A DNA stretch of 63,522 bases, filler included, from Octopus bimaculoides (lineage: Eukaryota), in the NCBI RefSeq assembly GCF_001194135.2. It is 4 parts of 3 records of this genome, joined end to end, with 100 filler letters (N's around TTAATTAATTAA, not from the genome) between each part and the next. Parts side by side here need not be neighbours in the genome. Positions count along the whole stretch, not along the records: positions 1 to 23,152 come from NC_068986.1; positions 23,253 to 44,649 come from NC_068998.1; positions 44,750 to 46,832 come from NW_026420693.1; positions 46,933 to 63,522 come from NC_068986.1. One strand, written 5' to 3'. The position numbers and the translations under genes are program-made. Positions 5,291-57,790 of the stretch are shown here, piece after piece (the stretch's first letter is position 1; every line of letters starts with the position of its first letter). The notes under the pieces were generated by a model. That model did not search any database, was not told the origin of the DNA, and saw nothing but the letters and a program-made list of their open reading frames with translations.

Positions 5291-5347
5291 TCCATCGAAG
5301 ACTATCTGAAGAAGGAATTGTATTCCGAAATATCATCGGACTATGGA
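5291..5347 (+). ncRNA. Minimal type I hammerhead-ribozyme-like motif
   Basis: CUGAAGA (5306-12), A, stem II GGAAU/AUUCC, GAAA (5327-30), palindromic AUAU, triplet AUC; stem I imperfect with distal UCCAU/AUGGA pairing. Confidence 0.55.
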
Positions 5348-5417
5348 TGACTAAATTACAACAGGTATATAGTCCATTTTTTGTATTATAGTGCATTGTT
5401 GTACCATTCAACACTTT

Positions 5418-6340
5418 TTATTCTTTATAAATAATAATGATAATAATAATAATAATAATAATAATAATAATAATAATAATAATAATAGTAATAATAATGA
5501 TGATGATGATGATGATGATGATGATGATGATGATGATGATGATGATGATAATAATAATAATAATAATAATAATAATCATAATAATTATAATAATAATAAT
5601 AATAATAATAGTGGTTTCAAATTTTAACACAAGACCAGCAGTTTTGGGGGAGTGGGTAAGTTGATTGTATCGACCCAGTACTCAGCTGGTATTTATTTTA
5701 TCCTCCCTCAAAGGGGAATCAAAAGAGAAAAGAAGGGAAAAAAAGAAGAGTAGATGGAGGCAGAAGAAGAAAGAGGAGGTGAAGGAGATGATAATGACGA
5801 CGAAACTGATGATGTTGACAACGACGACAGCGACAATGACGATGACGACAACGAAGACGATGATTGATAATAATGATAATGATGATGATGATGATGACAA
5901 CGAAGATAATGATAATGATGACGATGATGATGACGATGATGATGACGATGATGATGATGACGATGATAATGATGAAAATAAAGAAGAAAAAGAAGAATTA
6001 GTAGTAGTTGTAGTAGTAGTAGTAGTAGTAGTAGTAGAAAAAGAAGAAGAATAAGAAGAATCAGTAGTAGTCGTAGAAGAATTATTTATTATTATTATTA
6101 TTATTATTATTATTATTATTAGTAGTAGTAGTAGTGGTAGTAGTGGTAGAAGAAGAAGAAGAAGAAGAAGAAGAAGAAGAAGAAGAAGAAGAAGAAGAAG
6201 AAGAAGAAGAAGAAGAAGTAGTTGTAGTAGTAGTAGTAGTAGTAGTAGTAGTAGTAGTAGTAGTAGAAGAAGAAGAAGAAGAAGAAGAAGAAGAAGAAGA
6301 AGAAGAAGAAGAAGAAGGAAACTGCTGCTCTGTGATGCCT
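5418..6340. repeat. Compound trinucleotide microsatellite (AAT, GAT, GAC, GTA, ATT, GAA) containing a SINE-B fragment at about 5610-5720
   Basis: Visible directly; source of the poly-I/M/D/E/V ORFs. Confidence 0.97.
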
Positions 6341-6559
6341 GGAAAGACAATGAAAAGCAGCAGGTAGAGCAATCCTTTATCCATTCGGCCATCTTGCTTC
6401 ACAAGTGATGAAGAGTTGTGGGAGGAGGCAGGTTAAAAGAGAAAGGCTTCTTGGAATTCATTAACGAGATTATGGAGAGGGAAATGAAGGGCCATTTTGT
6501 TTTTTAAAATTGAAGTTGATTAAACAATAATTAAATTAATTGTTGATTAAACATCAACA

Positions 6560-7400
6560 TCAACATTATCATCAGCATCAAAAGCAGTAGCAACAACAAC
6601 AACAACAACAATAGCAATACTGATTACAATCACAATCATCATCAGCAGCAACAGCAGTAGCAGCAGTAGCAGCAGTAGCAGCAGCAGTAGCAGCACTGCC
6701 CCGTCATCACTTCCTCATCACCAACGCCACTACCAATTGAGAACTAGTACCGTCAATAGCTTTACTCTATCGGCAAATCTACCAACAGCACATCCTTATC
6801 ATCATCATCATCGTCATCATCGGCATCGTTGTCGTCGACGTCACCATCATCACCGCCATCATCGTATCCGCCTCCTTCCCCCTCCGCCTCGTCATCATCA
6901 TCATCATCATCATCATCATCATCATCATCATCATCATCATCACCGTATTCGTTGTCAATGACTTTCTTCCTCGTCATCGCCGTTATCGTCGTCGTCGTCG
7001 TCGTCGTCCTCCTCCTCCTCCTCCTCCTCATCATCGTCATCATCATCGTCATCATCATCATCATCATCATCATCATCATCATCAACGATTGTCGTTGTTG
7101 TCCTCCTTCTCCTTCTCCTCCTCCTCATCATCATCACCATCATCATCATCGTCATCATCATCATCATCATCGTCATCATCATAATCATCATCATCATCAT
7201 CATCGTCATCATCATCATCATCATCGCCGTCTTCGTCATCATCGTCGTCATTATCATCATCGACATCGTACGATACTTAACAGCAGCAGCAGCAATAGCA
7301 CCATCACCACCGCCATCTCTTTCTCGTCATCACCATCACCAGCATCATTACTATCACCATCACCATCACCATCACCATCAACATCACTATGACCATCTTC
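6560..7400. repeat. Compound trinucleotide microsatellite (CAA, CAG, CAT, CGT, CCT, CAC)
   Basis: Visible directly; source of the poly-H/S/D ORFs. Confidence 0.97.
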
Positions 7401-8313
7401 GCCACAATGACCACTCAGAGTGCTATGGTTAGGTATGTGTTGGTATGACAAGACCCCTGTCCACGCTCGATTGACACCCCCTAATGTACAAACCATTTAA
7501 TCAATTATAAACACTTCTTTCGCATTTCCTTCAAATTCTTCCATTTTCTTTCTTCATTTACAACTTCTTTCATCCTTCATGCTTGTTGTATTTTTTCTTT
7601 CTTCCTTTCTTTTGTTTTGTTTTGTTTTCTTTTCTTTCCTTGATTCAATTCTTTTTTATAGTTTTTTTTTTCTATCTCCTTTGAAAAACGAGAGTACGAA
7701 AATAACAAAACAAAAACAAAAAAAGACAAAAACAACGAATCAAATATATATATATTTTTTTGAGTTTTCCTCATCAGTGGTTCTTGTTTTCTTTTTAAAA
7801 TGGCGAGAGATTGAGAGAGAAAGAGAAAAGGGGCGAGAGAGAAAGAGAGAGAGAAAAGAAAAGAGAGAAGGGAAAGAGAGGGAGAGAGAGAAAAGGCAAA
7901 AGAGAGAAAGTGAGTGAGTGAGTGCGAGAGAGAAAGAACTAAGAAAGAACATTGACAAAATTGAATTTAAGAGACGCATGAAGAAAAATATAGGGGTGAA
8001 AAGAAAAATAAAGAGAAATAAACAAACAAACAAAAAAAACAAAACAAAAAACAATATGAAATAGAGGAGCGGAATTGAGGAGTAATTAAAAACAAAGAAT
8101 AAAAAAACAACAAAAAATAACCCATTTAGATAAAGGTACAAACAATAAGAAATATCTCAAGTCTTTCTCCTACAGAATTATAGCCGTAAGTCGAGCCGTA
8201 TCGATCGCTCCTTGATTACTCTAAAGAAGTGGCAGTCCGCAACGATGCTAGTCAACATTATGGCGTATCTGCACTATGCTATATCAATCGGAAATATGGT
8301 AGCGTTTCACATC

Positions 8314-55337: not shown

Positions 55338-55474
55338 AAATAATAATGATAATAATAATAATGATGATGATGATGATGATGATGATGATGATGATGATGA
55401 TAATGATAATAATAATAATAATAATAATAATAATAATAATAATAATAATAATAATAATAATAATAATAACAATG

Positions 55475-55625
55475 TTTCAGATTTAGGCACAAGGCCCGTA
55501 TTTTTAGGTGGGTGGAGAACTAGTCAATTACATCGACTTCAGTGCTCATCTGGTATTTGTTTTATCGACGCCAAAAGTATGAAATATAAAGTTGACCTCG
55601 GCAGAGGTTTAATTTAGAACGTAAA
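55475..55625 (-). mobile_element. SINE family B fragment
   Basis: ttaggcacaaggccc...atcgac...gttgacctcggcag. Confidence 0.8.
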
Positions 55626-56389
55626 CAATAAAAACAATGATAATATCTTCAGTACTTCAAATTATGACAAAATTGGTATTAAAAGAGAAAATGGCCAAGA
55701 CGTTTTAAATGAAAATCCTAGCTTCGAGAAATTTTATAATGACCTTCATTGTGATATTTGTAAACCAATTTATTTGTGACGTCAAAAAAAAAAAAATGAT
55801 TGCTATTTCAATGACACTCTTTAGGCAAATTTCCCCTTGAAGGAAATAAATTAAAAAAAAATTGTTCATTATTTGTCCCGCTAGGTTTTTCAACGTTTAA
55901 TTTTCTCTTACTTAAGATGTGAGAAAACGACGAAGTTATGGATGAAAAGATCGCCTAGCAATTTTCTTTTTTTTAGAATTTTATTGTCTTATTTAAGTTC
56001 ATTATGATAAAAATGAAAATGGATGTTAAAATAATTGTTCAAAGTAACCTCTTCCTTAGTCATCTACAATGATGTCTCATTCACTCTTTTGCATCCGAAA
56101 TGTTATATGCAAATATAAAAATAAATTAATGCATTTACCGACGTACAATACGCCGCTCTCTCGCACAAGACGCACACTCTTCCATAAGACTCGCTCCTAT
56201 TTTTCAAGTATATTTTGTGGTAGAAAACAGATCTATTGTTCCATCATACTGTTTTTTTTTGTACGGGAAAATTTATGATCCTGTGTGTGTAATGCTGTGA
56301 CAGTAAAGTAGAATAAAGTGTGAAACTATAAATTTATAATAAATACTTTACGTTCTTCAATTTTATCTTTCAAATCAGCCTCGTAGTTA

Positions 56390-57100
56390 TCTATATTTCC
56401 ACCAGTAGGAAAATTCCCATAAGCAAACACCTAGACCAATGCCCCGTAAACATAAACCCGAAATACCAAATCTTCCCTCTCTCTCAATGCACTGGAAACA
56501 CTTCAACCCAGTTCCGTTTGAACAAGGAAAGCATATTCATTAAAAAATATAAACCACAGCTGAATATCCTTTAGAAAGAAGAAAAACACTAAAGAGGAAA
56601 AGGAAAAAGACTTAATTTCTTCACAAAAAGACAACCAAGAATAACAAACAATTAAAAAAAAACTTTAGTAACAGTCTTTCACCCTGGCTTTGAAACCGCA
56701 ATTTCAAATTACCATACAATAACACCATACAAATATCAATTGCCGACGCCACCTATCTCTAGACCAATGAAATTTTACTAACACTAGTTGCTGACGTCAC
56801 CTAACTCTGCACCAATCAAAAACGTACTTCAGCAAATACAAAAAAAAAAAAATGACCCTTTAAGAGAATCAACCAGCCGGAACGACTAATGACCGTTCCC
56901 TACAGAGAAGCCAATCAGGCAGAACGACAAACTTGACCACCGTAAAAGAAAACTTTAAAGAATCAAAAATCAGAACCGCTCGCGGAAATATTATAAATAC
57001 ACCGGATTCCAAAACACACCACTATAAGCGAAAGTGCCTTCACACGACGGAAAGAGGGCCAGAGAAACTGTAAACTAAATCATTTTTTTACTATCTTTAT
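56390..57100 (+). mobile_element. Penelope-like ORF end plus terminal repeat (pLTR)
   Basis: RKIPISKHLDQCPVNINPKYQIFPLSQCTGNTSTQFRLNKESIFIKKYKPQLN* resembles the GIY-YIG C-terminus at 34211; followed by a promoter-like 3' region. Confidence 0.72.
56741..57025 (+). promoter_or_regulatory. Pol II promoter array within the pLTR
   Basis: CCAAT at 56764, 56812 and 56911; CRE TGACGTCA 56792-99; TATAAATA 56992-99; Inr-like CCACT with A at 57021 (29 nt from the TATA start). Confidence 0.62.
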
Positions 57101-57629
57101 NNNNNNNNNNNNNNNNNNNNNNNNNNNNNNNNNNNNNNNNNNNNNNNNNNNNNNNNNNNNNNNNNNNNNNNNNNNNNNNNNNNNNNNNNNNNNNNNNNNN
57201 NNNNNNNNNNNNNNNNNNNNNNNNNNNNNNNNNNNNNNNNNNNNNNNNNNNNNNNNNNNNNNNNNNNNNNNNNNNNNNNNNNNNNNNNNNNNNNNNNNNN
57301 NNNNNNNNNNNNNNNNNNNNNNNNNNNNNNNNNNNNNNNNNNNNNNNNNNNNNNNNNNNNNNNNNNNNNNNNNNNNNNNNNNNNNNNNNNNNNNNNNNNN
57401 NNNNNNNNNNNNNNNNNNNNNNNNNNNNNNNNNNNNNNNNNNNNNNNNNNNNNNNNNNNNNNNNNNNNNNNNNNNNNNNNNNNNNNNNNNNNNNNNNNNN
57501 NNNNNNNNNNNNNNNNNNNNNNNNNNNNNNNNNNNNNNNNNNNNNNNNNNNNNNNNNNNNNNNNNNNNNNNNNNNNNNNNNNNNNNNNNNNNNNNNNNNN
57601 NNNNNNNNNNNNNNNNNNNNNNNNNNNNN

Positions 57630-57790
57630 AACAAAGAAGTGTATTAGTTTGACGCTCGTGAAAATATGAAAAAGGTTTTAACATTTCGAGCCTACGCTCT
57701 TCAGCAGAAAGGAATATGAGAAAATAAACAGAGGAGCAATGAAAAAAAACTTATATATTTCAGCAGTCCATCGATCGGAAAAATAAAGAA
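57630..57790 (-). mobile_element. pLTR-like repeat related to 32580-32700, with a decayed hammerhead motif at 57676-57710
   Basis: Minus strand ttt-CUGCUGA-A-GAGC-guag-GCUC-GAAA-U-GUU-aaa, and gagcgtc..ctaatac shared with the 32660 region. Confidence 0.55.

What the first reader, a model, noticed from the sequence alone, without database searches (positions are those of the whole stretch)
5291..57710. Four minimal hammerhead-like motifs share one unusual grammar (5306+, 28054+, 32618+, 57710-)
All four read stem I'-CUGA(A/U)GA-extra A-stem II-GAAA-[4-nt palindrome ACGU or AUAU, zero-loop stem III]-H-stem I. Stem II sequences differ entirely (GGAAU/AUUCC, GGCUG/CAGCU, GAGC/GCUC) yet each stays paired, which is cross-family covariation rather than chance. 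Established: Penelope-like elements carry minimal type I hammerheads in their terminal repeats, and a very short palindromic stem III is expected to need dimerisation. Inference: at least three pLTR families here, some without an adjacent ORF, could be non-autonomous retrozyme-like elements that self-cleave as dimers and may circularise. I do not know whether this has been characterised in cephalopods.
Basis: partly seen in the sequence, partly recalled or inferred. Interest (0 to 1): 0.8.

Follow-up and report, generated by a model that had tools for sequence, protein, structure and literature searches.

The report
Octopus Penelope-element minimal hammerhead relics
The four motifs are real but worn copies of the small "hammerhead" RNA motif carried at the ends of Penelope-like jumping genes, a kind described in 2014 with exactly this layout; here they sit in what is likely an octopus genome as solo, likely inactive leftovers.

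Summary
The motifs are real: 3 strict matches against 0.007 expected, 4 against 0.039 with one core mismatch. The description is too tidy. The fourth core is CUGCUGA (C3 at 57707), only 2 of 4 stem-III palindromes are perfect, and stem I is weak at 28054. The 'unusual grammar' (extra base after A9, G10.1-C11.1, palindromic 15.2-16.2) is the published consensus of Penelope minimal hammerheads (PMC4209133). 28054 lies 178 nt behind a broken Penelope endonuclease gene. In 40 of 80 loci holding relatives of that gene the same grammar follows on the same strand, never the opposite one (nearly all one family). The 57707 family has on the order of 10^4 genomic copies. None of the motifs is in a tandem array, so they fail the retrozyme definition, and RNA reads showed no end pile-up. 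Verdict: decayed solo 3' ends of at least three Penelope families, a new member of a known kind. I found no cephalopod report, but one key paper was unavailable. Open lead: two copies of one family lack core A6. The scan noted this kind before in other genomes.

The parts
5291..5347 (+). min-HHR motif, family A: core 5306-5312, extra A 5313, stem II 5314-5326, GAAA, AUAU palindrome, H17=C 5334
5247..5429 (+). 183-nt ORF-less island holding the 5306 motif, between two identical 15-nt AAT-type tracts (5232-5246, 5430-5444); possible target duplication but low complexity
   Evidence: no PLE protein hit nearby
27316..27876 (+). broken Penelope/Poseidon-type thumb-linker plus GIY-YIG endonuclease remnant (4 stops before the terminal one)
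   Evidence: (36 homologues, best E 4e-63; named hits from Octopus)
28048..28095 (+). min-HHR motif, family B: core 28054-28060, stem II 6 bp, ACGU palindrome, H17=U 28089, stem I decayed; 178 nt behind the endonuclease stop with an (AAT)16 tract between
32612..32650 (+). min-HHR motif, family C (A6 core): ACAU at stem III, H17=U 32644, stem I 4 bp; inside a ~210-nt island 32542-32750 between (TA)n tracts
42441..42521 (+). heavily decayed copy of the 57707 family (core position 42456, several core changes, U at position 6)
57674..57713 (-). min-HHR motif, family C' (C6 core): C3 57707, stem II 4 bp, AUGU, H17=U 57680; peak of a very high-copy family
58329..58560 (-). putative C-terminal endonuclease remnant (EQELI...HGLN) about 620 nt upstream of the 57707 motif on the same strand; multi-copy; identity inferred from motif resemblance only
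   Evidence: no significant profile hit

Best explanation
The four motifs are minimal type I hammerhead sequences of the kind found in the terminal repeats (pLTRs) of Penelope-like retroelements, likely left behind as solo, mutationally worn 3' ends of at least three families and likely inactive where they lie. Shown: the motif anatomy, its excess over chance, the endonuclease remnant before 28054, the same order in relatives, the very high copy number of the 57707 family. Inferred from published work: in an active parent a tandem transcript carries two motifs whose palindromic A15.1-U16.1 segments pair with each other to supply helix III, and each is cut after H17, slowly and probably with help from the element's own protein. 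Reverse transcription primed at AT-rich or microsatellite DNA usually stops early, so only the pLTR end is inserted. Later C-to-T decay at CpG turns ACGU into AUGU or ACAU, and other point changes erode stem I and the core.
For: Grammar equals the published consensus, with CGU-H and UAU-H families listed in Fig. S3 incl. two molluscs. Chance excluded. 28054 is 178 nt behind a Penelope-type endonuclease remnant on the same strand. In 80 loci with relatives of that protein, 40 have a sense motif 56-489 nt downstream, 0 an antisense one downstream, 10 an antisense one upstream (inverted pLTR), and 0 of 120 unrelated viral loci have any; 20 of 80 have a Penelope-like RT upstream on the same strand. 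In that family 30 of 46 copies read CGU, 10 UGU, 5 CAU, 1 UAU after GAAA, so the window's AUGU and ACAU are the ordinary decay products. Summed contig depth on 57632-58555 peaks at the motif (X1 252,000 vs about 14 for the locus's own contig) and again at the putative endonuclease end (51,000). All five motifs lie within about 200 nt of a microsatellite; the window holds four more endonuclease remnants.
Against: No whole genome was held, so no family consensus could be built for 5306, 28054 or 32618, and 5306 and 32618 have no linked ORF. The link of 28054 to its endonuclease crosses an (AAT)16 tract, so it could be a separate insertion. The remnant before 57707 got no significant profile hit. 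79 of the 80 related loci come from two assemblies and essentially one family at 28-43% identity, so they are not independent. No RT remnant was found in the window. Cleavage was not tested; in an Anolis element the ribozyme was dispensable for insertion in vitro and no reads ended at the cut site (PMC11167929).
Confidence: 0.85

Rival explanations
1. The ORF-less islands at 5247-5429 and 32542-32750 are complete non-autonomous elements (mini-Penelope or retrozyme monomers) that are transcribed, cut as dimers, circularised and copied by a Penelope protein in trans.
For: Both are about 180-210 nt, ORF-less and bounded by microsatellite, in the size range of animal retrozymes. In the 57707 family the motif is about five times deeper than the putative endonuclease end. 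Retrozymes derive from pLTRs and include dispersed monomers (bioRxiv 2026.07.22.740005). Assembly gaps adjoin 32618 and 57707 and could hide arrays.
Against: No tandem unit holding a motif in the window, and no same-strand pair of one family within 1 kb in 80 related loci. 5' truncation gives the same islands. The depth ratio is also explained by subfamilies diverging outside the motif (loose ends at 57714). The 32618 copy has lost its palindrome. No end pile-up and no RNA joint among the 15 of 71 joints shown.
Confidence: 0.11
2. The solo copies still act: abundant family copies in host transcripts pair in trans through the palindrome and cut host RNA.
For: About 900 RNA reads deep over the 57707 motif in each of two runs, from other family copies.
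Against: Even designed dimers and trimers cut poorly in vitro (PMC4209133); 3 of the 4 copies have a damaged core, palindrome or stem I; only 3 of 2264 and 7 of 2081 reads are >=99% like this locus; no pile-up of ends.
Confidence: 0.03
3. The motifs are chance matches in AT-rich repetitive DNA.
For: Rfam finds no hammerhead; free folding of the longer contexts does not give a hammerhead shape.
Against: none of 1000 shuffles reaches 3; conservation peaks on the motif.
Confidence: 0.01

Closest known systems
Minimal hammerheads (min-HHRs) in pLTRs of metazoan Penelope-like elements (Cervera and De la Pena 2014, PMC4209133)
   Same: CUGANGA core, unpaired base between 9 and 10.1, G10.1-C11.1, zero-loop palindromic helix III (CGU or UAU before H17), short helix I, many families per genome, mostly solo copies tied to truncated elements; molluscan examples listed (Lottia, Crassostrea).
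   Different: No cephalopod in the Table S1 or Fig. S3 lists I read. These copies are decayed; the 57707 copy has C at position 6, which none of the Fig. S3 rows I read shows.
Poseidon element PAc of Anolis carolinensis (PMC11167929)
   Same: Penelope/Poseidon-type endonuclease followed by a pLTR hammerhead; preference for AT-rich targets.
   Different: PAc is intact and tested (cleavage needs the protein, is dispensable for insertion in vitro); here only broken remnants.
Animal non-LTR retrozymes (PMC7229834; bioRxiv 10.64898/2026.07.22.740005)
   Same: Non-coding, type I hammerhead, pLTR ancestry, 150-450 bp scale.
   Different: Retrozymes are tandem repeats, mostly with canonical hammerheads and abundant circular RNA; these are solo minimal motifs with no tandem unit in the assembled sequence.
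Natural A6C hammerhead of phage Bcep176 (PMC7151607; PMC3088659)
   Same: CUGCUGA core, as in the 57707 copy.
   Different: A single phage ribozyme with tested Mn2+ preference; here it is unknown whether C6 is a family trait or a private mutation.

Membership tests
PLE minimal hammerhead (min-HHR) | Core CUGANGA and GAAA | tested here: met
   Met in 3 of 4; 57707 has one change (C6)
PLE minimal hammerhead (min-HHR) | Unpaired base between positions 9 and 10.1 | tested here: met
   A in 4 of 4
PLE minimal hammerhead (min-HHR) | Helix II of 4 bp or more opening with G10.1-C11.1 | tested here: met
   4-6 bp in 4 of 4; G-C in 3, G.U at 28054
PLE minimal hammerhead (min-HHR) | Palindromic 15.1-16.1 without loop, then H17 | tested here: met
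   Perfect in 2 of 4, wobble in 1, broken in 1; both variants are the CpG-decay forms seen in 15 of 46 copies of a related family
PLE minimal hammerhead (min-HHR) | Helix I of about 3-5 bp | tested here: inconclusive
   4/4, 3/4, 3/4, 2/4 proximal pairs; loose-end reads of the 57707 family restore a fourth pair; no consensus for the others
PLE minimal hammerhead (min-HHR) | Lies in the terminal repeat 3' of an RT plus GIY-YIG ORF | tested here: inconclusive
   Met for 28054 and 40 of 80 related loci; motif-level only for 57707; no linked ORF for 5306 and 32618
PLE minimal hammerhead (min-HHR) | Belongs to a multi-copy family | tested here: met
   Shown for the 57707 family only (second and third window relatives); not tested for 5306 and 28054
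PLE minimal hammerhead (min-HHR) | Cleaves as a dimer, not as a monomer | not testable with these tools
   Needs in vitro transcription
Non-LTR retrozyme | Head-to-tail tandem units of about 150-450 bp, each with a hammerhead | tested here: not met
   No such array at any motif; gaps beside two motifs leave a caveat
Non-LTR retrozyme | Canonical type I hammerhead with a looped helix III | tested here: not met
   All four have zero-loop helix III; the 2026 preprint also admits minimal motifs in tandem units
Non-LTR retrozyme | Unit-length linear and circular RNA | tested here: inconclusive
   No end pile-up or RNA joint among the rows shown, in two ordinary RNA-seq runs read at about 6% depth, one family only

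The most novel reading that the evidence does not exclude
One octopus Penelope family with on the order of 10^4 copies spread with a hammerhead whose core has a pyrimidine at position 6 instead of the near-invariant A6, while a sister family (32618) kept A6. It would be a natural, genome-scale test of whether cleavage matters for Penelope spread: either the ribozyme is dispensable, or it is rescued by protein or Mn2+. Basis: both window copies of the family lack A6 (C at 57707, U in the decayed 42456 copy), and no other letter at that position reached the roughly 96% share of the 40 rows shown. That basis is thin: two copies, one badly decayed, and 128 rows not shown.
Probability: 0.3. Interest if true: 0.5.

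Novelty: new member of a known kind. Interest (0 to 1): 0.2.

Why it matters
As it stands it extends a known ribozyme class to an octopus genome and shows how dense these relics are (five motifs and six endonuclease remnants in 63 kb); octopus repeat papers count Penelope elements but do not mention ribozymes. It does not open a new mechanism. It would matter more if the very high-copy 57707 family proved to carry a non-A6 core as a family trait, because the in vivo role of Penelope hammerheads is still unsettled (PMC7761336, PMC11167929).

Tried and rejected
Own genome not held, so no genome-wide descriptor search. Rfam: no hammerhead family at E<=5. Pfam: nothing significant for the three broken fragments. 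A 15-base family pattern in viral contigs gave 120 stretches, none with a hammerhead; endonuclease relatives in viral contigs: none. A 19-base exact stretch of the 57707 motif: 0 in viral contigs, 2 in prokaryote genomes, at the level expected by chance and not examined further. Reading position 6 from predicted proteins that run through the motif: no usable hit in two searches. Atlas search of the 43-aa remnant before 57707: best score 0.87, uninformative. Run search: no RNA holder listed for 57640-57900. A core plus stem II at 35782- was rejected: no G10.1, non-palindromic, stem I 1 of 6. A relaxed scan found no further scored motif behind the other endonuclease remnants. Lunse, Weinberg and Breaker 2017 is not held; I saw only its title in reference lists and a review's summary, so it may already list octopus or position-6 variants. 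Earlier scan notes by sequence and by place gave nothing relevant.
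Full report
Observation. Each has an A between A9 and stem II, a stem II of 4-6 bp and GAAA-N-N-U-H. A strict descriptor finds 3 against a mean of 0.007 in 1000 local dinucleotide shuffles of the repeat-masked window; allowing one core mismatch finds 4 against 0.039, and no shuffle reached 3. Because that descriptor demands stem II, I also used a sequence-only signature: 3 of 3 window sites have stem II of 4 bp or more, against 8 of 104 simulated sites. 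The 57707 core is CUGCUGA. The stem-III segment is AUAU at 5306 and ACGU at 28054, but ACAU at 32618 and AUGU at 57707. Stem I pairs 3/4, 2/4, 4/4 and 3/4. 32618 and 57707 are related (73% over 71 nt), and a fifth, badly decayed relative lies at 42441-42521+. So there are at least three families. Rfam shows no hammerhead.

Context. The window is AT-rich (31.9% G+C with 6,859 N counted in the length) and full of microsatellites. No genome was held. 178 nt before the 28054 motif, on the same strand, ends a broken reading frame (27316-27876) with 36 homologues, best E 4e-63; two carry Octopus names and one is called a GIY-YIG endonuclease. That is my only basis for calling the host an octopus. 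An (AAT)16 tract lies between the stop and the motif, so their belonging to one element is inferred. About 620 nt before the 57707 motif lies a short frame ending in EQELI...HGLN, which resembles the end of Penelope endonucleases by my recollection; profile searches did not confirm it. 5306 and 32618 sit in ORF-less islands of about 180 and 210 nt between AAT or TA tracts. Four more endonuclease remnants lie at 34212-34630-, 41286-41969-, 48784-48921+ and 56401-56571+. Relatives of the 41.3-42.0 kb piece number 48 at E<=0.001; of the 6 long ones scanned, 6 have GIY-YIG and 5 an RT hit at E<=0.004.

Test of the link to Penelope termini. I fetched 80 loci (best 80 of 191) encoding relatives of the 28054-linked protein. 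40 of 80 have a same-strand motif of this grammar 56-489 nt behind the match, 0 have an opposite-strand motif within 1200 nt behind it, 10 have an opposite-strand motif upstream, as in inverted pLTRs, and 0 of 120 unrelated viral loci have any. 20 of 80 have a Penelope-like RT upstream on the same strand. Caveat: 79 of the 80 come from two assemblies and essentially one family, 28-43% identical to the query. In that family the triplet after GAAA is CGU in 30 of 46 copies, UGU in 10, CAU in 5 and UAU in 1. The window's AUGU and ACAU are therefore best read as CpG decay of ACGU. The 5306 island keeps its CpGs (o/e 1.38), so its AUAU is probably original; UAU families are published.

Reads. One lay was allowed; I used 57632-58555 at 80% likeness with two DNA contig sets and two RNA runs. 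Summed depth peaks on the motif: 252,000 in X1 against about 14 for the locus's own contig, and 1.17 million in X2 where single contigs show 45-79. The tool warns this is not a copy number; it indicates an order of 10^4. A second peak (51,000; 522,000) lies on the putative endonuclease end. Loose ends show other subfamilies diverging on both sides of the motif, and their 3' side restores a fourth stem I pair. RNA depth at the motif is about 900 per run, equal for both mate directions, and only 3 of 2264 and 7 of 2081 reads are 99% or more like this locus, so the reads come from other copies. No place had a pile-up of ends, and none of the 15 joints shown (of 71) was in RNA. These are ordinary cDNA libraries read at about 6%, so this is weak evidence against cleavage or circles.

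How it likely works. Shown here: anatomy, non-randomness, position behind the endonuclease, abundance, decay. Inferred from the literature: two motifs in one tandem transcript pair through the palindrome to form helix III and are cut after H17 (5334, 28089, 32644, 57680); activity is low and may need the element's protein; early termination of reverse transcription at AT-rich targets leaves solo pLTR ends. Solo, damaged copies have no partner in cis and are likely inert. I put this at 0.85, the non-autonomous or retrozyme reading at 0.11, trans-cleavage of host RNA at 0.03 and chance at 0.01.

Comparison with what is known. PMC4209133 (read: parts 1-2 of 4 of the text, parts 1-2 of 3 of the supplement) names as recurring features a base between 9 and 10.1, G10.1-C11.1 and palindromic 15.2-16.2, says most motifs are solo and probably from truncated elements, reports no monomer cleavage and low dimer cleavage, and lists Lottia and Crassostrea but no cephalopod. 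PMC7229834 (passages) and bioRxiv 2026.07.22.740005 (parts 1-3 of 5) define animal retrozymes as tandem repeats; the latter derives them from pLTRs and found cleavage in 1 of 9 dimers tested. No motif here is in a tandem unit, though gaps adjoin two of them. PMC11167929 (passages): the Anolis ribozyme needs the protein and is dispensable for insertion in vitro. bioRxiv 2021.04.23.441226 (passages): 5' truncation, inverted copies and microsatellite bias are general to these elements. PMC7151607 and PMC3088659 (passages): A6C occurs naturally and shifts activity from Mg2+ to Mn2+. PMC7761336 and PMC6765202 (passages): role in vivo unsettled. On cephalopods: searches found no paper describing octopus hammerheads, and PMC13282606 and PMC8967140 (term counts and passages) discuss Penelope elements with 0 mentions of ribozyme or hammerhead. 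Lunse et al. 2017 was not available and could cover them. Earlier notes of this scan reached the same kind of verdict in other genomes; they are not evidence.

Open lead. Both window copies of the 57707 family lack A6, and no other letter at that position was among the 40 best-supported differences (all about 96% share or more in some run; 128 rows not shown). Attempts to settle it failed. I give a family-level non-A6 core 0.3.

Verdict. Observation partly confirmed, interpretation partly supported; new member of a known kind; interest 0.2.

Noticed in passing
window 34212-34630 (-), 56401-56571 (+), 48784-48921 (+): Further Penelope-type endonuclease remnants (profile iE 7e-36, 4e-11, 1.4e-4). 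The first keeps the linker cysteine motif of Neptune-like elements. The first two face the 32618 and 57707 motifs tail to tail across assembly gaps.
   Followed up: partly
window 41286-41969 (-) and 40628-40738 (+): Penelope remnant whose 3' end is repeated in inverted orientation (111 nt, 88%); the decayed motif at 42456+ lies about 490 nt upstream of it on the opposite strand, across a gap.
   Followed up: partly
window 56572-57100 (+): The stretch behind the 56.4 kb endonuclease end has several CCAAT boxes, a TGACGTCA and a TATA-like box, like an internal Pol II promoter of a pLTR; no hammerhead scored there.
   Followed up: no
window 4931-5178: A 250-nt imperfect palindrome (76% self-complementary), MITE-like, 70 nt before the 5306 island. 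A longer one at 15543-15991 is two SINE-like copies in opposite orientation.
   Followed up: no
window 10680-10753 (+): Intact-looking tRNA-Trp(CCA) gene.
   Followed up: no
window 27900-27950 (+): A tRNA A-box-like stretch between the endonuclease stop and the (AAT)16 tract; possible SINE fragment, no match elsewhere in the window.
   Followed up: partly
window 5293-5305 and 5334-5344: A near-identical 11-13 nt direct repeat flanks the 5306 core on both sides, perhaps an old small duplication.
   Followed up: no
window 14208-15533 (-), 34700-35300 (-), 36956-37333 (-), 52693-53466 (+), 2688-3128 (+), 17705-18124 (-): Fragments that look like LINE ORFs and Tc1/mariner transposases by eye; not searched.
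   Followed up: no
L157:1-1600; L183: L157 has an open 417-aa RT plus endonuclease frame with its own hammerhead family 332 nt behind; L183 carries a second family upstream.
   Followed up: partly
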